A DNA stretch of 40,173 nucleotides from Basidiobolus ranarum. Lineage: Eukaryota. Below, one piece after another: positions 517 to 40,173 of the stretch. The notes under the pieces were generated by a model that did no database searches, had not been told where the DNA came from, and worked only from the letters and a program-made list of their open reading frames with translations. A program made the position numbers and the translations under genes. The stretch is from NCBI GenBank assembly GCA_040143965.1, contig JASJQH010006914.1, positions 1 to 40,173 of the forward strand. Reading direction: 5' to 3'. Every line of letters begins with the position of its first letter. Positions within the stretch are counted from its first letter, which is position 1.

Positions 517-1257
517 CAATTAACTATCAGTAACCAGTTCAATTTATTTGGAAGCCACATTTTTAAAGCAGACATCCTCTTTCTCTCTAAACATCGTTAC
601 TTTTTTTATTACTAAGCACCAATCACCTTGATATCCTGACCTATTTCAGTATATCACCACTAAACATCCCTTTTATGGGCACTCTGAGCATTATATTGGT
701 TGGTTAATTGAGATGGATTTGGTAAATAGATAAGGATTTGGTTAATGGATATGGATTTCGTTATTGGAGGTTGACTTGGTTAATGGGGATGGATTTAGTA
801 AATGATTTACCTTGATTCTCACACTATCAATCTGACTACCATTTCAATTATCCACAAGTTGGTTGGTCAATGGAGATCACTTAATTGAGATTCGCATACA
901 ATCAATTTGATTCAAAACCTACACACTTCCAATCAATTCAATTAATCAATACGTGTGATATGAACCATCCTTATTTCATTAGCTAATCCTGAGCCTAAAA
1001 TTAACGCACAAAGTACAATACCTATGGATTATCAATTTGCAAGTAATGCGTGAACTTTACATACCTTTTTATGTAATTGATATCGCTATTTCGCCAGAGG
1101 TTTGGACCAACTCAAGTTCTAGGTCAAGGTCCAGAGCCCATGCATTTAATTTGTGAAATATTAATGATCAGGGTCAAGTATAGCATACTAACATTAGACA
1201 ATCTCTAGAACAAACCCGTTTTGAAATGTTGATTATAGATGAAGAGATTTGTATACA
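517..1257. repeat. Dispersed direct repeat, copy A (homologous to ~5663-6607)
   Basis: Shared blocks include TTTGGAAGCCACA, CTCTCTAAACATCGTTACTTTT, CCTATTTCAG.ATATCACCACTAAA, AAAGTACAATACCTAT, CAGAGCCCATGCATTT, ATACTAACATTAGACAATCTC and GATTATAGATGAAGAGAT. Roughly 80% identity by eye, with indels. Confidence 0.85.
698..806 (+). repeat. Degenerate ~19-bp minisatellite (GGTTAATGGATATGGATTT-like) inside repeat copy A
   Basis: Successive units: ggttaattgagatggattt / ggtaaatagataaggattt / ggttaatggatatggattt / cgttattggaggttgactt / ggttaatggggatggattt. Confidence 0.65.
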
Positions 1258-5662: not shown

Positions 5663-6607
5663 GCAATCAACTAGTCAATATCCAGGTCAACTGATTTGGA
5701 AGCCACAATTCTAAAACAAACAGCCTCCTTCTCTCTAAACATCGTTACTTTTCAATTACTAAGCACTAATCACCTGCCCTTATATTTGTGAAGGGACTGA
5801 TATAAGGAATTGATATACCGACCTATTTCAGCATATCACCACTAAATATTAATACATCACTAAATATCTCTTTTCTTATGATCGTTAAATTTGTTGGCTG
5901 ATTGAGATGGACTAAATTGATTGGCTGATAGCTTACCTCCAGATCGTCACAAAATCAATCTGCTGAATAAATACTTACAAACGATCTGATTAAGAATGAT
6001 GAAAACTGACACTCAATTCAACTAATCAATAGTGTAAATTACAATAATTCATACCTGACATTTTATTGAATAGGGTTAGTAAATATGGGATGAAGAACAA
6101 TAGCAACAATGGTTTCCTAAAGGTTTAAGGGGTTTGAACCAGTTTTAAGCATTGTATATTTTCCAAATATTTCTGAGATATAGCAAAATATATATCATGA
6201 TTTTAACTTTAGAAATGTGCGAGTATTTCATTCTAATATAAAGTGCTAACTCTGTGTTCTATTTCGCAACCAACAAAAGCATCCTTTGGGTAAGAACGTC
6301 TATGGATACTATGAGCTATCCTTACCTCATTAGCTAGCCTCAAGCCTAAAATAAATGCTCAAAGTACAATACCTATTTACAATCAATTTGCAAGTAATGC
6401 ATGAACCTGACATACCTATCTATGTAATCAATATCCCTACTTCATCAGAGCTTTGCATCAACCCATGTTCTAGGAGAAGTTTCAGAGCCCATGCATTTGC
6501 TTTGTGGAATATTAATGAGCAGGGTTAGGTATAGTATACTAACATTAGACAATCTCAAGAACAAAGCTATTTTGAAGTGTCGATTATAGATGAAGAGATC
6601 TATATAC
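5663..6607. repeat. Dispersed direct repeat, copy B (homologous to ~517-1257, with an extra insert at ~6040-6310)
   Basis: Same conserved blocks in the same order and orientation as copy A. Confidence 0.85.
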
Positions 6608-6647
6608 AATTGTGTCTAAAACAGAAATTGCTAAAATCGAGGAATGT

Positions 6648-7132
6648 ATTGTTGAAATTAGCAATGCCTAAGCACCTATATAGTCATATATAGCTTAGTA
6701 CTTAGTTATCCTATATTGAACTAAGATATCATCTCAAGAGGAGTTTGCTTAGAAGTTTGAAGATATATTACTTTTTCAAACTTGCGCTAGGAGCCCCAAA
6801 CTTTGCACACGTGTTCCTGGGACCTTCCTTGACATATTCTACACGTTAGTTTGTTTACATCTTGACAAAACTATAAATGTCAACTTTCTACTCAATAAAT
6901 CAATAAGTGAAAACCACCAATTCCTCTAATTCTCCAAACCACTTCCAACAGGCTCCCAAATACTTTAACAGAAAGTTGACATTTAGAGTTTTTCAAAGCT
7001 GTAAGATAACAAATACTCCAAATGTAAATTCCAATTCAGAATAGTGAGTGATATCTTAGTGAAATATAGGATAACTAAATATTGAGCTATATAGAACTCT
7101 ATAGGTGTTTAGGCATTGCTAATTTCAACAAT
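6648..7132. mobile_element. MITE/foldback-like non-autonomous element with ~84-bp terminal inverted repeats
   Basis: 6648-6731 (ATTGTTGAAATTAGCAATGCCTAAGCACCTATA...CTAAGATATCA) is the imperfect reverse complement of 7049-7132 (TGATATCTTAG...ATAGGTGTTTAGGCATTGCTAATTTCAACAAT). A second inner inverted pair lies at ~6854-6888 and ~6971-7005. No coding capacity. Confidence 0.7.
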
Positions 7133-8961
7133 TTCAACAGTGATCAAATAGTTTACAGAAAAGCACATAATTTTTGATGAAAATAGTGAAAAGTTAAAAT
7201 TGTAGTGTTTTAATATTTCACATACCAAATGTATATTCCAATTTAGAGCTAGTGATATTTACTGAAAATACTAGCCAACTATTAATATAGTTTAGGAAAT
7301 AGTAAAGTATATGAAGAGATGGAAAACAAACATGCTAAAGATAACAAGCTTCAACATACTGAAAGCAAATTTGACTACAATAATAATAATAATTAGTAAG
7401 AGTTGAATTCAAGGTTGCGGAGAAATTAAATATAAAACAAAACCTCTAATTGGGTGGAAAGTCTTCAGAAATATTGATTTTTGGTTGTTTCCGCAATCCC
7501 TAGTGAGATGTCAGTCCAATCAAGACTACACGGCTACATACTGCTCTTGTTCTTCTTCAAGTATCTTACTTGTTGGGAGTATGCCCATGCGAGCAGGCAC
7601 ATTTACAATTGAATGCTTATAATGCTAAGAAAATATTTCAGAGTGTATTCCTAACAGTAAAGTCATCATATCAGTTGTTATCTTACTAGTGTTTCTTACG
7701 CATAAGACAGAAAAATTAGCACTTGTACCTTTCAAGAAACATTTATATTTCTGGCAAACACTATTTAGAACAATATAACTAGGCTTTTTGATTGCACGAT
7801 ACGAAATCATCTTTGCAGGAATCAACATAACTCGATCAATCTGATTAATCTAAAGCTTGCGACTACGATGGTTACTCAGAAACTGGCAAGCAGATCTCTA
7901 TTTTTAAGATTAACGCGCATCACTTTAACTCTGAATCATTGGCTGATAGAGTTATTGTTCAAGTTAGCACCTACAGCAGATTAATGACTTAACATCTACG
8001 TACAAGATAATGCATATAAATTGTTAAAAGATGACAGCACATAGGTGATAACTTGAACAACAACAACATTAAAGAGGATTTACTTGGTGATTCAATGTGT
8101 CTATTTCTTAGGCACTCGTGGTCTAGTGATTTGATTACTCGTTATTAGCACATATTGTATTCTATATGTGTACTGTCGTTTATACCAACCTTTGCACCTG
8201 TATCTTCCGTTAATCTGGATTTCCATTCACTAATGTAGTGATTATGTGATTTTCGGAATTCAGCATGCGCTACCTCAGTGTTTCGAGATGTGGCAAAGCA
8301 TTATTTGCAGGCATCTTAACAAATCAAAATAGAGGGAACCATATCGATATTTCTATTGAAGTCCTCTATGTTTGAATATAGCCCTATATATCCCCAATCG
8401 AGGAAGTAATTACTGATATTGTGAGCATTTCATTGTGCACATTGGGCAAACTCTGATCCCGTCATGGTATCAAAGGCGATGGTAATATACCCTAGTGTCT
8501 TGTGAGAACTGGAAGTTTCCAAATATAGAAATGCTCTAGAAAAACCCCATATATAGATGAAACTATGGTTTAACCTTATACTCAGACAATGATCCAGTCA
8601 TTAATTCAGTTGCATGATTGCATATCGATAAGAGTAAAGAAATGGTAATATATAATGGCTATCAATACGGAGACACGGAAACTGCCATATTAGGAAGACT
8701 TCGAGAATTAATTCTTTGTTGGTTCAAGGAAGAGCTCCAACTAGCAGCTTTTAGAATAATAATGCTGTATAAATGGTAACAAACACATGCGTCTCTTCGA
8801 CCAAATTTGGATGGTTATAGCTCATTTGATGTACACTTGGTTCGTTAAATAAATTACTTCCAAGTTGAAACTCTACGGTTTATTATTTCGTTATGATATC
8901 AAACACGTATATTTCCGGTGTTGAATTGGTTTTCCTTTGATTTCAAACCATATCCTAAACT

Positions 8962-10656
8962 TTAATTTCGTTTGATTCTTCTTCTAACTCTCCCTTCTTT
9001 ATACTTTCTTTGGCCAGTACTGATCTTACCCAGAATGATTCGATCCATGTCACCAGGGCAAAGAGGGCTAGCACATTCCATACTAAATGGCTATTCAGTG
9101 GAAATGGCAGTGATGATTTAATTGAATTAGAAAGTAAAACACCACCCAGGGCAGGACCAATAGCTCTTGTCAGCGAAACTACTGCCTGTGAATATCTAGA
9201 ATATACATCATATTAATAAAATATCCAGTTTAAGATTGTTACTCTGTGTTGCTTACCCGTTGACTGCTCCCAAAGTTTCCTTAGATGGACAAACATCTGT
9301 GAGCAATATGGAGGTTGCGGTGAAGCATATTGGGGAGCATATAACCTTCGTAATTAGGCAAAGACCAATTCCAGCCCAAACTCCTACCCACACCCAGTTG
9401 TAAGTGCTGGTATCGGTGGTTTGAAATTGGTTTGCATAGCGAGCTAGGTCAGCTATGAAAGGTTGCAAGAAATAAAAAGGAATGTATACGAAAAGCACAA
9501 CCATATAGCACTTGAGGTCACCATAACGTCTTTGAAGTGGTGGGTATATTATAAGTTGTACGATGGGTGTCAGAATCCCTACGACAGCTAGGGTAATACT
9601 GATTTTCTGCTGATCTAAACCAAGACCGTATTGGCTAGAAGGCGCCGCTGTCCATAGGTTATATAACTCGTCCCATGTCACGTTCTGTAGAGAGAAAAGT
9701 ACATAGGATAATACAACTACATGGACTGGCTTAGTAAGGGAAGATAGAAATCCAAATTTGAATCGCTTTGAGGTTGTTTTCACACTTTCATCACTTGTTG
9801 AACAAGACTCTGAAACAGTATAAACGGAATTTTCTTGCTTCGTTTCTGTTTGATTGGATTGTTTCTTCACTTTCTTCGCCAAGGTTTCTTCCAAGTATAT
9901 TGCTCCAAAGATGGATCCAGCTAAACTAATACAGGCACCTATTGCGCATGGTAGAAAGTATGGATATCGAATTAAAAATTCATTTCCACCAAATATCGAA
10001 GGGTATTGAGAGGCAGGTTCTGATAAAAGACCACCTAATAGGGGGCCCACTACACTGCCAACCCCCCAAACAAGTGGCAATAACGTGAAAGCCTTTGCAC
10101 GATTGGTGTCATCCGTTATCTCGGCCAATAAAGACTTTATAACACCAATGTTACCGTTTAGTATCCCTGCTAATGAGCGACTAAGGATGGCCATCACATA
10201 GCTCCGACTTAACCCAAACAGTAATATACCAACAGTACTCCCAAGCAAGCCCATTAATATAACTGGCTTGCGGCCAATTCGATCTGACAATATACCCCAA
10301 GGAATGCCTAGTGAATAAGTAAATTAGAACCAAAAAAGATCAACTCGTGAGCTTATGTGCAATCGTTACCACTAATGAATTGGGCAATTGCAAATGATGC
10401 TGCAATCAAGCCTGCAAAAGAGCTTACATCCTCTTCACTTTCACCTACATTCATCCACTTGACCATCTAGTAGAGAAAGCAAGACTCAGAAAAAGTTGAT
10501 CTACGCAAATAACTTTATATATCACACCTTATACATGAATGGAAATAATATGGTGTAGTTGATCGGCTCAGCAAGTCTGACTAGACAGAGAATAATAAGC
10601 TGCCTCATGGGCAACGGGGTGATGGTTTCTGTAGTAGAAGGCGAACTGATACTCAT
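8962..10656 (-). CDS. MFS transporter, ZIFL/TOM1/ENA1 (fungal YCR023C-like) family; 4 exons
   Basis: Exons 10656-10528, 10466-10370, 10307-9257 and 9195-8962 with GT-AG introns that keep the frame. N-terminus TPLPMRQLIILCLVRLAEPINYTIYYFPFMYKMV...FAGLIAASFAIAQFISGIPWGILSDRIGRKPV (MFS motif A). Also contains NGNIGVIKSLLAEITD, YPYFLPC and LGAVNGYSQ..SLTRAIGPALGG, typical of this family. Confidence 0.9.
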
Positions 10657-11258
10657 CGTCAAAGCTAATATGGAATACTGGCAAGCAATGGTGAGCTAGT
10701 TATGTTTATTTTATAGCACGCTACATAGTTCGGAAATAGAACACCAATTATGATAGGTTTACGATTAGCATGGGGCTGTGCCATGGCATATCGGGTATAA
10801 GCTAGCTTGTAATAAATATACGATAGTCCTACCAGAACTAAAACTTACGTTTCAACCAAATCAGTGACAACTCATCGATTATGGGTAGCAATTACGACAA
10901 TAAGCGTGACCATGTTCTTTGCTTAGGTATAAAAAAAACTACCCTAACGCTGGTTTGAATCGCACATGTAATTCTTTATTTATATTATAATCCTATATGG
11001 AAACCACGATGAAGATCTAAGAGATGCACCTTTTATTAGTCTGAGAAATATTGTGGTAAAGCTATTTTAACTAGTTCCCTCGCAGAATACCCGATATCAT
11101 ACCCGACTCGAATTCTTGGTACGAATGGATTGCCCCGCTTTTGGTATTATTGTGGAGTCATCAGAGTTTGAAGAGGTAAATATTCCCATTGAGTTTCCGT
11201 CTATAAATAAGGCTGCTTCTTTTTGACTTTGTAACTCATCTCAACTACTTATCTTAAG
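10657..11258. promoter_or_regulatory. Bidirectional promoter between the MFS gene and NAS
   Basis: Divergent ATGs separated by 602 bp. TATAAATAA at 11202 (+) and TATAAAA on the minus strand near 10709-10715. ATACCCGA(TAT) motif at 10788-10798 (-), 11087-11097 (+) and 11099-11106 (+). Confidence 0.6.
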
Positions 11259-12164
11259 ATGCTTAGCGCCACTGAAATACTGCCTCTATCAAAGGATGCC
11301 TTTATCCCCGAGAATTCAAGGGACACCATAGAGCGACTCTATGCAATCTATAGTATCCTGGCTAGCGCACCTTTACTTGACCCCAGCCCAGAAATTAACT
11401 CTGCTTTCACTGAATTAGTGGGGATCTGTATCAAAGCTTTACCACGAGAAACCATCCAAGAGATATTGGAAGACGAGCAAATCGTGGCTATTACCAACCA
11501 TTTCCGCCAACTCTGTGCTTCGGGAGAATTTCGTCTGGAGCTGACCTGGGCCACCTATGTCACTAAAAACCCTGAGAGAACCGCGATTGAGTTAATGAAA
11601 TTCCCCTACTATAACAACTATGTAGCGCTAGCGAAGATGGAGCTTAATGCTATCCATTCAGTATTATTCCGGGCCCCCAAAAGAATTGCGTTTTTAGGTT
11701 CAGGTCCGCTCCCATTGACCTCAATATGTCTGGCACGGGAATTGATTAACAAAGGAAACAATCAGTTGAACCCGAGCACTTCTGACTTTACTATCGAAAA
11801 CTACGATATAGATTTGGAAGCCTTGAAAATTAGCAAGTTGTTGACTGAGCAACTCTCAGACGTGCAGGCCCACCTGACCTTTCATCATCAAGATATTAAT
11901 TCGATTCAAGATCTTCGTAAATATGATGTTGTCTATCTTGCTGCCCTTGTCGGATTGGTTGTATCTGAGAAGCGAAAACTCATTCAACAATTATGGAAAA
12001 GCATGTCACCTGGATCTTATTTGGTCCTTCGCAGTGCTCACAGTCTTAGAAAGATATTGTACCCAGAGGTTGAGACGGAGATGTTACAAGGTTTTGAGCC
12101 AGTACTTGTTGTGCACCCTTACAATGAGGTAGTGAATTCGATTGTTATCGCAAAACGCCTGTAG
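11259..12164 (+). CDS. NAS: Nicotianamine synthase (SAM-dependent aminobutyryl transferase), single exon, 301 aa
   Basis: NAS family motifs: FPYYNNYVALAKME, IAFLGSGPLPLTS, NYDID, YDVVYLAALVG, PGSYLVLRSAHSLRKILYP and VHPYNEVVNSIVIA. Confidence 0.95.
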   Translation: MLSATEILPLSKDAFIPENSRDTIERLYAIYSILASAPLLDPSPEINSAFTELVGICIKALPRETIQEILEDEQIVAITNHFRQLCASGEFRLELTWATYVTKNPERTAIELMKFPYYNNYVALAKMELNAIHSVLFRAPKRIAFLGSGPLPLTSICLARELINKGNNQLNPSTSDFTIENYDIDLEALKISKLLTEQLSDVQAHLTFHHQDINSIQDLRKYDVVYLAALVGLVVSEKRKLIQQLWKSMSPGSYLVLRSAHSLRKILYPEVETEMLQGFEPVLVVHPYNEVVNSIVIAKRL

Positions 12165-13378: not shown

Positions 13379-13846
13379 CTAGTCAAAGGTGCTGATGCTA
13401 CTCTGTGAAGCTAAAGAGTAGTCAGAATTTACATTATCACCACATTGCCTGTAACGTAGAGATTTAGCAAATGAAACAAAATCGTCTCGGATAATGCTGC
13501 TTGCAGTGGAGCTTATCATACTAACTGCATCAGTATCCGAGTCTGATGTAGAGTCACTAGCGGAAGTGAGATCAGGGACTCTTAGAGTCTCTTCTAAGCT
13601 AAATTCACCTAAATCGTAGTCATCAAAAAGCTCGTCCATCAGACTACCATGCATGGACCTCGAGCCTTTACGATAAGCTAGGTGCTTTGATAGAGTATCT
13701 ATTTCATGAATGGTTAGTTGTCGGTTTTTCATGGGTTCTTTTAGGTGCATGTTGGTGGTCTCTTCTTTAAACATGTCTTTTAGACATTCTTTAATGACTC
13801 GGTTGTCTTTACGCTGAAACAGATGAAAGCGGAGGGAAACAGACAT
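13379..13846 (-). CDS. Hypothetical 155-aa protein with an acidic/Ser-rich C-terminal half
   Basis: ATG-initiated ORF with protein-like composition. Upstream TATAAAAG (minus strand, ~13962-13969) and a possible 5'UTR intron (~13882-13931). No recognised family. Confidence 0.6.
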   Translation of the reverse strand: MSVSLRFHLFQRKDNRVIKECLKDMFKEETTNMHLKEPMKNRQLTIHEIDTLSKHLAYRKGSRSMHGSLMDELFDDYDLGEFSLEETLRVPDLTSASDSTSDSDTDAVSMISSTASSIIRDDFVSFAKSLRYRQCGDNVNSDYSLASQSSISTFD

Positions 13847-15324
13847 GATAGAAGCAGATTTGCCAATGTTGCAGAAGGAAACTAGATCAAGACTTGCCGT
13901 ACAACTAAATAGAGAATAAGGAAAAGCTCACCACTGAGATACAAAATCAATGCGGCACTGACTTTTATACTCAAGTGCTTGTACAAAAGCGTACCTATGC
14001 CGAGCATGGAAGTAAAAAAACCCCATATGACCTGAATAAAGCCCTATCGAATTCAATATAATAACGCCTCATTTATTATCTTCATTCATCATCTTGAATT
14101 AATAATTTTTAATGAGTGGATCGATTTACATTGTCGATTTATTCAACAGAATTACGTAGTAAATTTTGTACCCTCCATGCCAAATCCGAAGCCCAAATCT
14201 CGACAATTTATGATAATATAATCCCGGAGTCGGTGCTTGAAATTTACCAGGTTTGTTGCACCATCCTCCTAAGCCGTAATCACTAAAGAAACTTTTTCTT
14301 TGCGCTCGTTTCCCCCTTATTTTGAGCAGCCAACAGAAAGCTTTTAATAGGTAACTAGCTAGATGAATACGACATGGCCACTCTAATTATGCTTGTAAAT
14401 CATATGGTAAACTTCTAACGAGTTGTTGTTTGAGACGGCAATGGTAAAGCCTACTTGATGGAAATCAACATCTGATTCTAGTGATCGCAAGATGCGGGCA
14501 ATTCCTTCATTGTGTTAACTTTTTTCACCATTGAAATCAATTCTATTTCAAAGATATTGAGTCGGAAGTAGTTGTAAGCATTTTTTCGAAGCTTCATTGA
14601 ATGAATAACCGAATGTGCAAAGTTAGTGAAACCTCTCATCGTGCCATCTGAGCCTTGTACACTACTCGATCTCAAACCTTAGGAACCGAACGATAGACCA
14701 TCTATTTGGGATAGACGGAGGTGTAAAATCAAAACTAACACTTGGTACTACATCATATATGTAGCCCATAAAAGCAGGTTTTCCTTGGCATTGTCTCCTC
14801 AACTTTATTGAAAAGAACTATAGAAGCATTGCTACACATTGGCGGAGTACTATTTTCTGTGAATTCTATCTGGAAAAGCAAAAGTAATCTTTATTGCAAC
14901 AGATCAATGAGAAAGCACTACCAACGTATCATCTAGCGTGTGATTGGGCGCACAATACCAATGTCTTATGTGTGTATACTCGAAAATATAGAAACTTGAT
15001 TTCAAAATCCACAGATTAGAACCGAATAGCTATTAATTCAATGGGGGAATTCTATCTAGTTCAATGCAGATTCAAATGGAATTTTGGACGAAATAAATAA
15101 TAATAAATATATACCGAGAATCATATAATAAATAAAATATCCTATTTTCCTTTTTGGTTACCCGCTTTGTAAGTCTGATCCCATTCGAAATGAAATTGGG
15201 AATGATCTCTGGCTTGGACGCGTATATTGGGTTCCTTTGAAAGCATGTCCATTCGAACGTTTCTTACATGTTAACTTTCAGTTATTTTCTTTTACGACTT
15301 GAGTGTTAGAAAGTTGACAGAAAC

Positions 15325-16617
15325 ATGCGAGTTCAAGTTTGTTCGAAATGCAAGCAACCTAGAAAGGGTCATATATGTCCTTTATGGAATGAATCTTCAG
15401 TGAGTTCAAAAATAAATTCTTCAGAAGATAGTATGAGGTGGGTGTAAATTTTCAGTCAAGAATTTAGTAGCGATTGATGACCATAAAAGAAATTTTCTTA
15501 TTTTTCCAAGTATCAATACATCTCTTCTATCTTGCTTTGTTCAAAGTAAAACGAAAAGAGAATATTCTAAATTATGATATATATCAGTCAGAGTCCACAA
15601 GTTCTCCCCAGTCCACCTCCAATAGCCCACCAACCTCAATCTAGATCTACTGAGTACGTATACCCGAACGGTGTTGCTGTTTTGAATCTCATAACCTCTG
15701 ATACTTAAGCTGACCCAATGTTCATTTTAAGTACACAGATTGTTTACGAAGAAACCACCAGAAGGCCCTCAATTCACTCTGCTTTCGAAGAAGGTACAAT
15801 CGTCAAAAGAACCTTTAATGGGCTGCTTATAGCTTCAAGAGAAATTAATGTCTTTTTTAGTAAAACAAGCCAGTCCGATCCACACAACCCACTGTGTGAA
15901 CCCAGTCGCTCAAAACAACATGCAACAACTGTTAAATGGGTATTATTCTTTTCTTTCAAACAACGTCATTATTCTGCATATGCTGTCCCAGTTTTACTCT
16001 CAAGCAGTATACGAAACACATAGATATCACGTGATCGAATGCTAACATCAATACTATATATACAGGCCAACTTCTGGTCCTCAAGTGATCGAGTATTCAG
16101 GTGTTAGAGGTAGTTTACTAAAGAAATACACTGTCCAATGAATATGGTACAAAAATTGATCAGCAAAGTTGTTTACAAGAAATTGCCTCTATATAGAAAA
16201 CCCCCATGAAAAGAAAATGAAGGATTACGAAGAAATGTCAGAGACACTAATGCAAAGAGTAAGAAGCATTATACACTTCAATCATAATACTCCATGCTTA
16301 TATTTAATCACAATCAGGCGGCGCAAACTTACAAGGAGGATCGAGCGCAGATCATTTTGTATGTTACTAGTATGGATCCATATCAGAACGCAGTTAAAAG
16401 ATTTGTGAGTGAACCATTGAAGGCCGAGACGAGCTCTTTTCAAATGATGGATCGTAGTGCACTGGAGTTGATCGAAACCTGCAAGAGCTGCTTGACAGCT
16501 TCTCGCGAAGAATTGTTGGAAATTCTGAATGAAAGAAGTCGAGAGTTGGCAGAATCCAGAAAGGAGGTTGATCAATTAAAGCTAGAAATGTCTAAGCTGC
16601 CCTCATTTCTTCATTAA
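15325..16617 (+). CDS. Multi-exon hypothetical protein with N-terminal CxxC-x5-H-x-C Zn-knuckle-like motif and C-terminal coiled coil
   Basis: Exon 1 encodes MRVQVCSKCKQPRKGHICPLWNE. A phase-consistent GT-AG chain of about 8 exons joins SQSPQVLPSPPP, DTQIVYEETTRR, ASREINVFF...VKW, FYSQAVYETHRYH, ANFWSSSDRVF, RNCLYIENPHE...MQR and AAQTYKEDRAQ...KLPSFLH*. Confidence 0.65.
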
Positions 16618-17650: not shown

Positions 17651-20428
17651 ATGAATAATCCCTTCAACAACCTTACTCAAGAAGACATAGACTATGTAAA
17701 TTATATGGATTCCACTAACTCCCATCCACAATACATCCCCTCCACTGTTTCCCTTAATTCAGGTGAACTCAATTCCGAAGCACAAACGAATAACAATATG
17801 AGGGAGTCAAACTATGATTTTACAAGCATAAACTAGTAAGCAAGATATACATTCACTTTTTTTGGTTTATTCTTAGTGTATATATAACTATTACCTATGA
17901 CCATATATGGGACTTCCATTGACGGCTTTTTATCTTTCTTAGTAATGGGGGTTCTAATGGGGAAACCTCTATGTCAAATATCAAACCAAATGATACAGAC
18001 GAGATTTCTACTGGCCCTTACATACCAACCTCGCAACTTTTCCACTCCATGCTAAACGATATGGGCTCCTCAAGTAGCTCTCAATACAATCGTCCGTCAC
18101 AGTTTAGTAGCTACTCTACTCCGCTCAATATGAATCTAGATGAAGTTAACTCCGATCCTTCGAAACGTTAGTTGTAATGTGATACTTTAACCTAACGATT
18201 ATGCGTAACTAACACTGAAATCTTCAACTTAGTGGCCAATACTACACTGAGTCATTTTCCTGGGTTATATTCTAATTCAGGATTCGACATGCTGAGTGTT
18301 TTGGTGAGTGTTTAGAATATGATATATACATGAGTATTTTCACCCTGCTAGATAAAAATAGTACTTCTTTTCCAACTGAATTTCTTTAATATACGAGTAG
18401 AACTTTTTCAATTCAACTTTACATCGATTAACATCTATTTTTTTACGTTATGTTGATCTAGGCCAAAGTCGCAAATCGGTTCGTATTATTCATATTCTTT
18501 TTGTAAGTTAATGGCATATTTCAGATGTTTACCTATCAAATCTTGTATTGACGTAGACCTAATCCACAAATCAATCTTGGGCCTGTAGATATGAGCTGCT
18601 CTTTTGTAGTTGGTAAATCAAATCTAACATCTATCTGAATCGGTTCATTCTATCAAATGCCTAATTCTCGCAATGCTATTTTACTAGTGGATGCTCGTCA
18701 GTTCGACTTCCCCATGGTATACGCCAGTCAATCATTTGAAAATCTGACGGGATATTCTGATGTAGAGGTGATTGGTAAAAACTGCCGGTTTCTACAATCT
18801 CCAGATGGACAAGTAACTCTGGGATCTCGGAGACGCTACACTGACAATAATTCGGTCCATAATCTTAAAAAGCACGTGCTTCAAGGAAAAGAAATACAAG
18901 TTTCGCTAGTAAACTACAAAAAAGGCGGACAGGTAACGTTTATCTGCTTGATGATTGATGGTACATTATTCTAATCTACTATTTGTAGCCATTTGTGAAT
19001 CTACTTACCATCATACCTATCGCTTACGGAAATGGTGATGAAGTAACACACTTTGTTGGATTTCAAGTGGTAAGTACAAATCTTCCACAATACCTAGGTA
19101 GAGTTATTAATGGATACATTTACCATCCCGTAGAATCTTATCGATCAGCCCAACAATATTCTACAAAAGATGCAAGGTAAGCTGTTAATGAAAATGAACT
19201 AGCACGGAATCAATTGGTAACCTGGCTTATTTATATAAAAGATGGTACATATATGGTGAACTACAGCGCACAGCCTATGCTTCATTCTGGTAAAATATAT
19301 ACACATCATTACGTAAATATCACATTCCTTCAAGCATACTGAGCCTCTTCTCTCTTGCGTACGCTAGGTATATTTCAGAGATCATTAGATGAACAGTTCT
19401 CCTCTACACCTATATCTTCCGATTTCTCTGCCACTCCCGAAGTATACGAGCTAATGGAAACTGGTGAACACACTGATCAAGAAGCCATGCTTCGACAATG
19501 GAATCAGATGCTCTTGGAACACTCCGATGACTTTATACACGTTCTATCACTAAAAGGGCTATTCCTTTATTGCTCACCCAGTTGCAAAAAACTTCTAGGA
19601 TATGAGCCAGAAGAATTGATTGGGCGTAATATCTCGATGCTATGTGAGCCTAGCGACTTAATACCATTAATGAGAGAATTGCGAGAAGCAGTAAAGACCC
19701 AGGAGGACCTAGATCCACTCTGTTTCTTGTACCGAATAAAAAACAAACACTCGGGTTATTTTTGGTTCGAGGTTCAGGGTAGGCTATACTCCGAGAAAGA
19801 CAAAGTAAGGAAATGCATTGTCCTCACTGGTAGACCTAGGCCAATTTACAAATTGTCCATGGAAGCACTTCAGTCCTGCGGTGGTTTGTCTACGCGAGAA
19901 TTTTGGTCCAAATTGACTTTGGATGGAATGTACCTTTATGTGACAAATAATTCGAAAAATATTCTTGAACTGGCGCCTGAAGAGTTAATAGGAACCTCGC
20001 TATATCAGATGATTCGATTCGACAGAGCTACTGCATTGACTAAAACGCTTCAACAAGTAGCAGATGGAACTACCGTAAAGCTGAAGCATCGAATGCTCAA
20101 TAAAAATGGACATTCCGTCAATATCATTAGTACATTTTATCCGGGAGACGCTACGGAAGGGAAACCTGCAACGTTTATATTGTGCCAATCTAAGGAAGTG
20201 CTGGACAATGAGGAATCTTTAGATGGAATCAGCACCACCTCGTCGGCACCCTCACCTCAAACCAACCAAAAATCTACGAGTATAGACAACCTTTTCAGCA
20301 CACTTGATGCAGGTGGTAATACCACATGGCAATATGAGCTTCATCGACTTCGTATTGCAAACCAGCGACTAAAGGATGAATTACAAAATTTAATTAGCCG
20401 TAGAAGAGGAAGGGAATTATCAGTTTGA
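17651..20428 (+). CDS. wc-1: White Collar-1-type blue-light photoreceptor (LOV + PAS-B + PAS-C), about 10 exons, no visible GATA finger
   Basis: Spliced sequence YSNSGFDMLSVL-AKVANR-PNPQINLGPVDMSCSFVVVD...GKNCRFLQSPDG (LOV with photoactive Cys), VNYKKGGQPFVNLLTIIPI and FVGFQV. PAS segments DDFIHVLSLKGLFLYCSPS and EFWSKLTLDGMYLYV. Ends TWQYELHRLRIANQRLKDEL...ELSV*. Confidence 0.93.
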
Positions 20429-39726: not shown

Positions 39727-40173
39727 TTAAGCGTAGACATTGCTTGTATCATATGCCCCAGCACCTCCACCATTTCCACCAGCACCAGGTCCTTCACCTC
39801 CGCCGTTTCCAGCACCAGGTCCTTCACCTCCGCCGGTTCCAGCACCTGGTCCTTCTCCTCCTGTGCCACCATAGCCAGGGCCGGAGTTACCGCCACCAGC
39901 TCCTGCATTAGGCCCTCCGGCGTTACCAGATTCACACTCCTCACCGCCACCATTACCGCCAGCAGCAGCGCCAGGGCCAGCACCATATCCTGGACCTTCA
40001 CCACCACCATTTCCACCAGGACCTGAGCCATTGCCGTTACCACCAGCACCATTTCCGGTGTCATAAGAGTTGGGTCCTCCGTTACCACCAGCACCAGATC
40101 CTGGACCTTCACCTCCACCATTTCCACCGGCACCTGGGCCGGCTCCATATCCAGGACCTTCACCTCCACCATT
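39727..40173 (-). CDS. 3' end of a glycine-rich repetitive protein (GGGEGPGAG repeats), partial
   Basis: The minus-strand frame from 40173 is open for 148 codons plus stop: NGGGEGPGYGAGPGAGGNGGGEGPGSGAGG...GGAGAYDTSNVYA*. Synonymous variation among Gly codons supports this frame over those in the ORF track. Confidence 0.85.
   Translation of the reverse strand, partial: NGGGEGPGYGAGPGAGGNGGGEGPGSGAGGNGGPNSYDTGNGAGGNGNGSGPGGNGGGEGPGYGAGPGAAAGGNGGGEECESGNAGGPNAGAGGGNSGPGYGGTGGEGPGAGTGGGEGPGAGNGGGEGPGAGGNGGGAGAYDTSNVYA

What the first reader, a model, noticed from the sequence alone, without database searches (positions are those of the whole stretch)
8962..12164. Head-to-head nicotianamine synthase + ZIFL/ENA1/TOM1-type MFS transporter: candidate fungal metallophore synthesis and transport module
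Seen: an intact NAS and an MFS gene transcribed divergently across 602 bp, at the edge of a repeat-rich accessory zone. Known: NAS makes the Fe/Zn/Ni/Cu chelator nicotianamine from 3 SAM. In plants the ZIF1/ZIFL family (Arabidopsis ZIF1, rice ENA1 and TOM1) moves NA or NA-derived phytosiderophores, and bacterial opine-metallophore operons pair the NAS-like CntL with an exporter (CntE in staphylopine). Fungal NAS is characterised in Neurospora. Inference: this is a co-regulated two-gene cluster that makes and secretes or compartmentalises NA in an early-diverging fungus. It would also suggest a substrate for a poorly characterised fungal YCR023C-like MFS clade. I do not know of such a cluster being described.
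Basis: partly seen in the sequence, partly recalled or inferred. Interest (0 to 1): 0.85.

Follow-up and report, generated by a model that had tools for sequence, protein, structure and literature searches.

The report
Fungal nicotianamine synthase–transporter gene pair
In the gut fungus Basidiobolus, the gene for the enzyme that makes the metal chelator nicotianamine sits back-to-back with a membrane exporter gene, and the pair has been kept together through several duplications, so the two probably work as a small unit for making and moving the chelator.

Summary
The window is a 40,173-bp Basidiobolus ranarum contig. It carries an intact 301-aa core-type nicotianamine synthase (NAS, 11259-12164 +). 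A four-exon, 505-aa MFS gene (10656-8955 -) is transcribed divergently from it across 602 bp.

New here: the pairing recurs.
- A second NAS/MFS pair in B. ranarum has adjacent locus tags.
- Two B. meristosporus NAS genes lie on contigs of the same length as the closest MFS homologues.
- The NAS-linked MFS proteins form their own clade (SH-aLRT 100), apart from the genus's ordinary paralogues.
- A white-collar-1 gene 5.5 kb away is not co-retained.

The pairing is not pan-fungal: 0 of 80 metagenomic NAS loci, 29 of them ascomycete-like, carry such an MFS.

The MFS is a DHA1-type proton antiporter. Its best solved relatives are MFSD10 and NorA. It has the Trp-prefixed MFS signature and near-matches the antiporter signature, but lacks the three plant-specific ZIFL motifs. 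A tree with ZIF1, TOM1, ENA1 and YCR023C could not be built.

The closest fungal precedent I found is the copper-responsive MFS / opine dehydrogenase / SAM-enzyme cluster of Pseudogymnoascus destructans (2025).

Verdict: a likely nicotianamine synthesis-plus-efflux module, and a new variant of a known kind. Expression, substrate and membrane are untested.

The parts
11259..12164 (+). Nicotianamine synthase CDS, 301 aa plus stop, no intron. Core-only (class III) form.
   Evidence: ORF. PF03059 at E 2.2e-70. Holds all 40 columns that are invariant across 20 fungal, moss and plant NAS. Has C86, E90, E94 and Y121, the C-x3-E-x3-E...Y pattern of AtNAS1 C69/E73/E77/Y106. Best solved relative is MtNAS 3fpe, E 1.9e-8.
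11125..11175 (+). Extra 5' exon of the deposited NAS model (17 codons; the implied intron is 11176-11258). Doubtful.
   Evidence: P0121 is 318 aa, and its last 301 aa equal the ORF. The paralogues P0122-P0124 start at the Met that corresponds to 11259. No RNA data could be obtained.
10657..11258 (.). 602-bp shared upstream region between the two divergent start codons; candidate bidirectional promoter.
   Evidence: Coordinates. No match to the metal-response consensus motifs I recalled (ZRE, CuRE, Aft, iron-GATA).
10788..10798 (-). ATACCCGATAT, sense to the MFS gene, 132-142 nt before its ATG. Candidate shared cis-element.
   Evidence: Perfect 11-nt inverted partner of 11087-11097. These are the only two copies in 40 kb at up to 1 mismatch. 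An inverted repeat of 11 nt or more arises in 6.1% of 1000 random 602-mers.
11087..11106 (+). ATACCCGATAT followed by a second ATACCCGA (11099-11106), sense to NAS, 153-172 nt before its ATG.
   Evidence: The 8-mer ATACCCGA occurs 4 times in the window against 0.65 expected; 0 of 100 shuffles reach 4. Three of the 4 copies lie in this 602-bp region.
10528..10656 (-). MFS exon 1 (43 codons, starts with ATG).
   Evidence: The spliced product equals P0001.
10370..10466 (-). MFS exon 2 (97 nt).
   Evidence: Flanked by GT..AG introns of 61 and 62 nt.
9257..10307 (-). MFS exon 3 (1051 nt). Carries the MFS signature WGILSDRIGRK and the antiporter motif GSVVGPLLGG.
8955..9195 (-). MFS exon 4 with the stop codon (8955-8957).

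Best explanation
This is a two-gene unit for making and exporting nicotianamine (NA).

The NAS condenses three S-adenosylmethionine molecules into NA in the cytosol. This step is inferred from family membership and conserved catalytic residues.

The divergently transcribed MFS is a 12-helix DHA1-type proton antiporter. It belongs to a Basidiobolus-specific clade found only beside NAS. It moves NA, free or metal-bound, out of the cytosol. That is inferred from the conserved linkage, the antiporter motif, and analogy with plant ZIF1/ENA1/TOM1 and the exporters of the bacterial cnt systems.

I think export across the plasma membrane, giving a secreted Zn/Cu/Fe/Ni-scavenging metallophore, is somewhat more likely than loading into the vacuole. 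The data do not decide this.

Both genes are probably driven from the shared 602-bp region, perhaps through the repeated ATACCCGA element. That is a lead only.

The pair was duplicated as a unit in the Basidiobolus lineage and kept together.
For: 1. Both genes are intact and 602 bp apart, head to head.

2. The pairing recurs.
- K7432_004751 (MFS) and K7432_004752 (NAS) are adjacent locus tags on a 23,209-bp contig of the same species.
- B. meristosporus NAS P0123 and MFS P0003 are both on a contig of 198,920 bp.
- NAS P0124 and MFS P0005 are both on a contig of 244,099 bp.
- So 4 of the 4 Basidiobolus NAS genes listed are paired.

3. The five closest MFS proteins form a clade (SH-aLRT 100, stem length 0.96). 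It stands apart from Basidiobolus's other paralogues, which sit with Entomophthora and Neoconidiobolus (42 rows).

4. Pairwise identities of the NAS and MFS partners rise and fall together (r = 0.95 over 6 non-independent comparisons). The window pair is the outlier in both families. The NAS tree is compatible with this (Basidiobolus clade SH-aLRT 98).

5. The neighbouring WC-1-like gene, 5.5 kb from NAS, is not co-retained. Apart from the window's own copy, the 9 other Basidiobolus WC-1-family proteins listed all lie on contigs whose lengths differ from those of the NAS/MFS contigs.

6. The MFS has motif A and the antiporter motif C. The AlphaFold model has pLDDT 90.3 and shows 12 long helices. 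The best fold and sequence matches are MFSD10 (an organic-anion transporter) and the NorA efflux pump.

7. The NAS keeps the catalytic Glu/Glu/Tyr positions. N. crassa NAS makes NA and is induced by zinc deprivation (cited in 10.64898/2026.08.27.747422 and PMC10248798, passages read).

8. Published precedents exist for NA-type synthase plus MFS in one system: plant ZIF1, TOM1 and ENA1 (PMC6503003, passages) and the P. destructans cluster (PMC12113139).
Against: - There are no expression, metabolite or transport data.
- The B. meristosporus linkage rests on equal contig lengths, not on seen adjacency. The orientation and spacing of the other three pairs are unknown.
- All the pairs descend from one ancestral adjacency, so they show retention, not repeated independent assembly.
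- The fifth clade member (P0002, partial, contig 57,046) has no listed NAS partner.
- The pairing is absent from 0 of 80 metagenomic NAS loci. These include 23 ascomycete-like loci with at least 2 kb of flank on one side, 18 of them upstream, and 12 loci whose ORFs of 200 aa or more (68 in all) were scanned with Pfam. Other fungi therefore use NA without such a neighbour.
- The MFS lacks the three plant-ZIFL-specific motifs.
- No importer for metal-NA complexes is nearby.
Confidence: 0.6

Rival explanations
1. The two genes are neighbours by descent only. They share a bidirectional promoter region but no pathway. The MFS carries some unrelated organic ion (drug, polyamine, anion or chloride), and the adjacency survived because the duplications copied a block.
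For: - Gene order in eukaryotes is often functionally neutral.
- The wider MFS family is present in Mucorales and many Dikarya, none of which appear among the 120 listed NAS hits, so its ancestral role is NAS-independent.
- The solved relatives are a broad-specificity anion transporter (MFSD10) and a drug pump (NorA).
- YCR023C was reported to raise Cl- currents (PMC8673761).
- No pairing was seen in the 80 other NAS loci.
Against: - 4 of 4 Basidiobolus NAS genes keep a member of one MFS clade at NAS identities down to 63-67%, while a WC-1 gene 5.5 kb away was not kept.
- The NAS-linked MFS clade is separate from the genus's general paralogues.
- An 8-mer is shared by both upstream halves.
Confidence: 0.2
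2. The module is functionally coupled, but the MFS is an importer or retrieval carrier for metal-NA complexes, or it moves a NAS substrate or by-product (SAM, methylthioadenosine), rather than exporting NA.
For: - A secreted metallophore needs an uptake route, and none is seen in the window.
- MFS carriers can run in either direction.
Against: - The conserved TM5 antiporter motif G-x3-G-P-x2-G-G is typical of DHA1 exporters.
- The known metal-NA importers are YSL/OPT proteins, not MFS (PMC6503003 and 10.64898/2026.08.27.747422, passages).
- The known NA/DMA-handling MFS proteins (ZIF1, ENA1, TOM1) all move the ligand out of the cytosol.
Confidence: 0.1

Closest known systems
Plant NAS with the MFS carriers ZIF1 (vacuolar NA), ENA1 (NA efflux) and TOM1-3 (deoxymugineic acid efflux)
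   Same: The enzyme family is the same: 38-41% identity to plant NAS, with the catalytic Glu/Glu/Tyr kept. The logic is the same: NA is made in the cytosol and moved out by a DHA1-type MFS. The MFS has the ZIFL-style Trp before motif A. It matches the antiporter signature with Thr in place of Ser; three paralogues have Ser. By eye it resembles the published rice ZIFL motifs, for example PYFLPC, LFPF.Y and WG...DRIGRK.
   Different: The plant genes are not described as linked in the passages I read. The fungal MFS lacks the Cys motif, the His motif and the TM8-9 motif of plant ZIFL (0 of 120 family members for Cys and His, 2 of 120 for TM8-9). The NAS is the short core-only form without the plant autoinhibitory tail. 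Clade membership could not be tested by a tree.
Pseudogymnoascus destructans copper-responsive gene cluster VC83_01834-01838 (PMC12113139, 2025)
   Same: It is a fungal cluster that joins an MFS transporter to a SAM-using enzyme of the opine/NA-metallophore type. Its authors propose that it makes and traffics a metallophore (passages read).
   Different: That cluster also has an opine dehydrogenase, a metalloreductase and a P450, and it is shown to respond to copper. The Basidiobolus unit is only NAS + MFS; no such domains appear among the window's 20 other ORFs of 110 aa or more that were scanned. Its NAS is a canonical one, and its regulation is unknown. Whether the two MFS proteins are related was not testable.
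Bacterial cnt operons for opine metallophores (staphylopine, pseudopaline, yersinopine)
   Same: A NAS-like aminobutyryl transferase is encoded together with an exporter (PMC7438024 listed; PMC10248798 passages).
   Different: The bacterial systems add an opine dehydrogenase and a dedicated importer and are operons. Here there are two monocistronic eukaryotic genes with introns, and no dehydrogenase or importer.
Neurospora crassa NAS (class III fungal NAS)
   Same: Both are core-only fungal NAS. NcNAS is enzymatically active and zinc-responsive.
   Different: No linked transporter is mentioned in the passages read. The Sordariomycete-like NAS loci in my sample pair NAS with an ATP-grasp enzyme instead. 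Fungal and moss NAS genes are reported to share a conserved intron, whereas the Basidiobolus ORF has none.
Human MFSD10 (TETRAN, PDB 6s4m) and S. aureus NorA
   Same: These are the best solved relatives by sequence (3.4e-14; profile search 4.7e-22 and 5e-25) and by fold (Foldseek rank 1, E 2.3e-11).
   Different: Identity is only about 16%. Their substrates (organic anions, quinolones) say little about NA.

Membership tests
Nicotianamine synthase (Pfam PF03059) | Full-length match above the curated cut-off | tested here: met
   237.6 bits against a cut-off of 27.1, covering profile positions 5-271 of 276.
Nicotianamine synthase (Pfam PF03059) | Catalytic residues equivalent to AtNAS1 E73, E77 and Y106 (MtNAS-type reaction chamber) | tested here: met
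   E90, E94 and Y121 lie in invariant columns of 20 NAS sequences. The residues named as essential come from PMC10248798. The mapping uses the C-x3-E-x3-E...NNY pattern and Brassicales sequences, not AtNAS1 itself. The VGMD motif reads VGLV here.
Nicotianamine synthase (Pfam PF03059) | Makes nicotianamine from three SAM | not testable with these tools
   Needs an enzyme assay or LC-MS.
MFS, DHA1-type (12-TMS drug:H+ antiporter) | MFS_1 domain and a 12-helix MFS fold | tested here: met
   MFS_1 at 5.1e-25 on exon 3. AlphaFold2 model with pLDDT 90.3 and pTM 0.86, and a disordered central loop around 235-261. Foldseek's top hits are all MFS.
MFS, DHA1-type (12-TMS drug:H+ antiporter) | Motif A G-x3-D-[RK]-x-G-R-[RK] and antiporter motif C G-x3-G-P-x2-G-G | tested here: met
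   WGILSDRIGRK and GSVVGPLLGG. Profile hit to NorA at 5e-25.
Plant ZIFL family (ZIF1/TOM1), as defined by Ricachenevsky 2011, PMC3041735 | Trp immediately before motif A | tested here: met
   5 of 5 NAS-linked MFS and 80 of 120 family members.
Plant ZIFL family (ZIF1/TOM1), as defined by Ricachenevsky 2011, PMC3041735 | Antiporter signature starting with Ser: S-x8-G-x3-G-P-x2-G-G | tested here: inconclusive
   The window protein and P0002 have Thr at that place. P0003, P0004 and P0005 have Ser.
Plant ZIFL family (ZIF1/TOM1), as defined by Ricachenevsky 2011, PMC3041735 | N-terminal Cys motif C-[PS]-G-C | tested here: not met
   0 of 120. In plants 58 of 68 have it.
Plant ZIFL family (ZIF1/TOM1), as defined by Ricachenevsky 2011, PMC3041735 | His motif [PQ]-E-[TS]-[LI]-H-x-[HKLRD] after TM6 | tested here: not met
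   0 of 120. The window protein has EETLAKK.
Plant ZIFL family (ZIF1/TOM1), as defined by Ricachenevsky 2011, PMC3041735 | TM8-9 loop motif [RK]-x2-G-P-[IV]-x3-R | tested here: not met
   0 of 5 NAS-linked and 2 of 120 overall. The window protein has RRYGDLKCYM.
Plant ZIFL family (ZIF1/TOM1), as defined by Ricachenevsky 2011, PMC3041735 | Groups with ZIF1, TOM1 and ENA1 in a phylogeny | not testable with these tools
   No tool returned plant ZIFL, ENA1 or yeast sequences. The 120 MFS hits listed are fungal or unnamed, and the Atlas neighbours are all fungal clusters.
Yeast YCR023C-like MFS | Orthology to S. cerevisiae YCR023C | not testable with these tools
The literature read calls YCR023C a CLN7 homologue.
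Opine-metallophore (cnt-type) cluster | Opine dehydrogenase (CntM-like) next to the NAS-like gene | tested here: not met
   No such domain among the window's 20 other ORFs of 110 aa or more, or among 14 shorter ORFs.
Co-regulated fungal biosynthetic gene cluster | Conserved linkage of enzyme and transporter across genomes | tested here: met
   4 of 4 Basidiobolus NAS: 2 by adjacent locus tags and 2 by equal contig length. Not met outside the genus.
Co-regulated fungal biosynthetic gene cluster | Co-expression under an inducing condition | not testable with these tools

The most novel reading that the evidence does not exclude
Basidiobolus, a gut-dwelling fungus of amphibians and reptiles and an occasional human pathogen, secretes nicotianamine as a true extracellular metallophore (a zincophore or copper/nickel scavenger) through a dedicated MFS exporter clade. 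That would be a fungal counterpart of grass 'strategy II' and of bacterial staphylopine. It would have evolved by recruiting a housekeeping MFSD10/ZIFL-like carrier next to NAS, then amplifying the pair to at least two copies per genome. The clade would be the first fungal NA exporter and would give a substrate to an uncharacterised fungal MFS family.
Probability: 0.3. Interest if true: 0.7.

Novelty: new variant of a known kind. Interest (0 to 1): 0.5.

Why it matters
Fungal nicotianamine has been treated as an intracellular chelator known mainly from Neurospora. How fungi move it is unknown.

A synthase/exporter pair kept together through duplication gives a concrete and cheap hypothesis to test: express NAS with and without the MFS in yeast and measure NA in cells and medium.

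It also names a candidate substrate for a widespread uncharacterised fungal MFS family. It adds an early-diverging lineage to the recent proposal that fungi use NA- or opine-type metallophores.

It bears on metal competition in the vertebrate gut, where Basidiobolus lives. It also bears on the evolutionary story in which plants obtained NAS from fungi.

Tried and rejected
- Own genome: not held. No genome-wide count of NAS or MFS copies could be made.
I wanted accession numbers to check adjacency in B. meristosporus. I used the locus tags and contig lengths instead.
- The genome search on the records behind five long fungal metagenome loci: not held.
- Haydon & Cobbett 2007 is not held, by DOI or by PMC id.
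- Protein Atlas: only generic fungal MFS clusters came back, with no plant ZIFL neighbour and no structure search.
- The search of earlier findings: 8 notes on prokaryotic NAS-like operons, and nothing on this genome or these proteins. None of them bears on this case.
- Metal-response motifs as I recall them (ZRE ACCTTNAAGGT, CuRE, Aft, iron-GATA, MRE). None occurs in the 602-bp region. The ZRE-like pattern has 14 matches in the window against 21 expected, and none of them is intergenic.
- Positions specific to the NAS-linked MFS clade. Eight were found (M41, G51, S59, A66, N292, Y302, S312, L447). None is charged, and there is no clear substrate signal. I dropped this line.
- HGT of the pair from bacteria. 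I rejected this, because the nearest relatives of both genes are fungal.
- Block duplication that includes the WC-1 neighbour. Not supported.
- Complex prediction was not used. An enzyme and a carrier of its product are not expected to bind each other.
Full report
**What is there**

The window is one whole 40,173-bp contig of Basidiobolus ranarum. The deposited proteins K7432_001641 and K7432_001642 are listed with that contig length. The lineage is Basidiobolomycota.

On the plus strand, 11259-12164 is an uninterrupted 301-codon ORF. It matches Pfam NAS (PF03059) at E 2.2e-70 over nearly the whole profile.

On the minus strand a four-exon gene runs 10656-10528, 10466-10370, 10307-9257 and 9195-8955. 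Its three GT..AG introns are 61, 62 and 61 nt. It encodes 505 aa, and the product is identical to the deposited protein. Exon 3 matches MFS_1 at 5.1e-25.

Two small corrections apply.
- The MFS stop ends at 8955, not 8962.
- The deposited NAS model adds a 17-codon 5' exon (11125-11175). The three Basidiobolus paralogues do not support it, because they start at the Met of 11259.

**The enzyme**

In an alignment of 20 fungal, moss and plant NAS sequences, the window protein holds all 40 invariant columns. These include C86, E90, E94 and Y121. That is the C-x3-E-x3-E...Y pattern of AtNAS1 C69, E73, E77 and Y106. Seebach et al. showed E73, E77 and Y106 to be essential (PMC10248798, passages read; residues checked).

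It ends right after the core domain, like the active 'class III' fungal and moss enzymes. Its best solved relative is the archaeal thermonicotianamine synthase (3fpe, E 1.9e-8).

In a 23-row tree the four Basidiobolus NAS form a clade (SH-aLRT 98). Chytrids come next, then Dikarya plus a moss, and seed plants lie far away. Nothing suggests a bacterial origin.

That the enzyme really makes nicotianamine is inferred, not shown.

**The transporter**

The AlphaFold2 model, built on 65 homologues, is confident (mean pLDDT 90.3, pTM 0.86). It shows the two six-helix halves of an MFS joined by a disordered loop at about 235-261.
- Foldseek ranks human MFSD10 (TETRAN, an organic-anion transporter) first, at E 2.3e-11. 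SV2A and the NorA efflux pump follow.
- By sequence the order is MFSD10 at 3.4e-14, then NorA.
- With a family profile it is NorA at 5e-25 and MFSD10 at 4.7e-22.

The protein has motif A (WGILSDRIGRK) and the TM5 antiporter motif (GSVVGPLLGG). This is the hallmark of DHA1 proton antiporters that move substrates out of the cytosol.

**Is it 'ZIFL-type'?**

I tested instead the five signatures that Ricachenevsky et al. give for plant ZIFL (PMC3041735, passages and Table 2 read), with these results:

| Signature | NAS-linked proteins (of 5) | Whole fungal family (of 120) |
|---|---|---|
| Trp before motif A | 5 | 80 |
| Ser-initiated antiporter signature | 3 (the window protein has Thr) | 67 |
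| Cys motif C-[PS]-G-C | 0 | 0 |
| His motif | 0 (window: EETLAKK) | 0 |
| TM8-9 loop motif | 0 | 2 |

By eye, the published rice ZIFL consensus motifs resemble the fungal protein along most of its length. Short shared strings include PYFLPC, LFPF.Y, WG...DRIGRK and G.VVGP..GG. I did not compute this.

My reading is that this is a fungal family related to the MFSD10/ZIFL kind of DHA1 carrier. It is not a member of the plant ZIFL family as that family is defined.

The only functional paper on YCR023C that I found calls it a CLN7 homologue that raises chloride currents in HeLa cells (PMC8673761, passages).

**Linkage: the main new result**

The NAS search listed four Basidiobolus proteins, and the MFS search listed the matching partners.

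| NAS | MFS | Basis for linkage |
|---|---|---|
| K7432_001642 (the window) | K7432_001641 | seen directly, 602 bp apart |
| K7432_004752, 23,209-bp contig | K7432_004751 | adjacent locus tags in B. ranarum |

A fifth, partial MFS (P0002, contig 57,046) is the closest relative of the window's MFS at 78% identity. It has no listed NAS partner.

In a 42-row tree these five MFS proteins form a clade (SH-aLRT 100) on a long stem of 0.96. Basidiobolus's three other paralogues in the tree sit elsewhere, with Entomophthora and Neoconidiobolus. The tree used the quick method and warned about several long rows, namely Puccinia, Coemansia, Diversispora and Dimargaris. The placement of the clade within the family is unresolved.

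Across the four pairs, MFS identities (72-80%) and NAS identities (63-76%) move together. The correlation is r = 0.95 over six comparisons that are not independent. The window pair is the most divergent in both families. This fits duplication of the pair as a unit.

As a control I asked whether a larger block was copied. The white-collar-1-like gene K7432_001645 (17651-20428) lies 5.5 kb beyond NAS. It has nine other Basidiobolus relatives in the listing, and none is on a contig of 23,209, 198,920, 244,099 or 57,046 bp. Its 77% orthologue is on a 48,350-bp contig. So what is retained is the pair, not the neighbourhood. Fragmented assemblies weaken this control.

**Outside the genus**

A scan of JGI metagenome contigs with the NAS alignment matched 317 stretches. 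Of these, 144 encode a relative and 80 were kept. By best NAS reference:
- 33 look like plant DNA;
- 29 have a named ascomycete NAS as best reference;
- the remaining 18 include a few high-GC loci that are probably bacterial, and others whose best reference is unnamed.

tblastn with the window's MFS found nothing in any of the 80 at E 1e-3 or better. Of the 29 ascomycete-like loci, 23 have at least 2 kb of flank on one side, and 18 have it upstream. A Pfam scan of 68 ORFs of 200 aa or more from 12 of the longer non-plant loci found no MFS domain.

No chytrid or Pezizomycete genome could be examined directly, so the state in the NAS lineages nearest to Basidiobolus is open. As far as this sample shows, the pairing is a Basidiobolus feature, not a general fungal one.

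**The shared upstream region**

None of the yeast or ascomycete metal-response motifs I recalled is present.

One feature stands out. The 11-mer ATACCCGATAT occurs only twice in 40 kb. Both copies lie in this region, and each is in sense orientation 132-172 nt before one of the two ATGs. The 8-mer core ATACCCGA occurs 4 times in the window against 0.65 expected, and 0 of 100 shuffles reach 4. Three of those copies are in the 602 bp.

The inverted pair alone is only marginal: 6.1% of random 602-mers have one as long. The motif was also chosen after the fact. It is a lead for a shared element, to be checked in the paralogous promoters, which I could not fetch.

**Literature**

I found no paper that describes a fungal NAS next to an MFS of this kind. 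The searches were:
- 'nicotianamine synthase' + fungi + MFS (14 papers);
- nicotianamine + Neurospora crassa + zinc + fungal (11);
- Basidiobolus + nicotianamine (1 paper, listing only, not opened);
- NAS + horizontal gene transfer + fungi + Dirick;
- 'nicotianamine-like metallophores' + fungi + genomic.

Three papers close to the topic were checked by term search:
- Dirick et al. 2025 (PMC12454661): no 'MFS' or 'neighbo', and 'transporter' and 'synten' only in the reference list.
- The 2026 YSL/NAS preprint: no 'MFS' or 'synteny'.
- The Basidiobolus secondary-metabolism paper (PMC7466969): no 'nicotianamine' or 'MFS'.

The closest precedent is the copper-responsive cluster of Pseudogymnoascus destructans. 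It comprises a metalloreductase, an MFS, an opine dehydrogenase, a SAM-using enzyme and a P450, and was proposed to make and traffic an opine-type metallophore (PMC12113139, passages read). This lowers the novelty of 'a fungal NA-type synthase clustered with an MFS'. The Basidiobolus unit is simpler and uses a canonical NAS.

**Mechanism and odds**

- Most likely, at about 0.6: NAS makes NA in the cytosol, the linked antiporter moves it or its metal complex out of the cytosol, and both genes are read from the shared region. Within this, I lean slightly towards secretion over vacuolar loading, without decisive evidence.
- About 0.2: the adjacency is inherited but has no functional meaning.
- About 0.1: the carrier imports metal-NA or moves a related metabolite.

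What is shown: gene integrity, family assignments, motifs, fold, and conserved linkage within the genus.

What is inferred: the product, the substrate, the direction, the membrane and the co-regulation.

**Verdict**

But it is lineage-restricted, the 'ZIFL-type' label is only loosely justified, and there is a published fungal analogue. It is a new variant of a known kind, of moderate interest, and easy to test.

Noticed in passing
L024, L025, L047, L048, L050, L051, L053, L059 (e.g. L025:1561-3876 minus strand, with NAS at L025:4954-6150 plus strand): In Sordariomycete-like metagenome contigs, NAS is divergently paired with an ATP-grasp enzyme of about 700 aa (PF18130 + PF13535) 1-2 kb upstream. 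This holds for 8 of 8 such loci with at least 2.3 kb of upstream flank; some loci are near-duplicates of each other. L025 also has a P450 fragment right after NAS. This may be a cluster that modifies nicotianamine.
   Followed up: partly
L077:4370-6025 (+), with NAS at about 8001-9099: In one Mollisiaceae-like contig a POT/PTR2 peptide transporter lies 2 kb upstream of NAS. This is a single case.
   Followed up: no
window 17651-20428 (+): A white-collar-1-like LOV/PAS photoreceptor gene (K7432_001645, 676 aa). The listing shows no GATA zinc-finger Pfam domain for it, unlike most WC-1 hits. Nine other Basidiobolus members of the family appear in the listing (5 B. meristosporus, 4 B. ranarum).
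   Followed up: partly
window 15660-15667 (+): The fourth and only other copy of ATACCCGA in the window lies about 50 nt before an unannotated ORF (15709-16023), between NAS and the WC-1 gene. It could mark a third gene under the same control, or it could be chance.
   Followed up: no
window 527-1257 and 5675-6608; 6648-6731 / 7049-7132: Direct repeats 5.1-5.35 kb apart (83-90% identical) and an 84-nt inverted repeat lie in the 9 kb beyond the MFS 3' end. No Pfam-detectable coding sequence was found there. This may be a decayed mobile element.
   Followed up: partly
window 11125-11258: The deposited NAS model starts with a 17-codon exon and an 83-nt intron that the three paralogues lack. This is probably an annotation artefact. 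If it is real, the intergenic distance is 468 bp.
   Followed up: partly
window 11259-12164: The Basidiobolus NAS ORF has no intron. Fungal and moss NAS genes are reported to share an intron at a conserved position (PMC10248798).
   Followed up: no
window 39740-40140 (minus-strand ORF running off the contig end): Six imperfect 53-nt repeats that encode a Gly/Pro-rich stretch at the contig edge.
   Followed up: no
window 13379-13927 (-): The gene next to NAS on the far side is a Ser/Asp-rich ORF of 155-182 aa with no Pfam match. Its relation to the pair is unknown.
   Followed up: no
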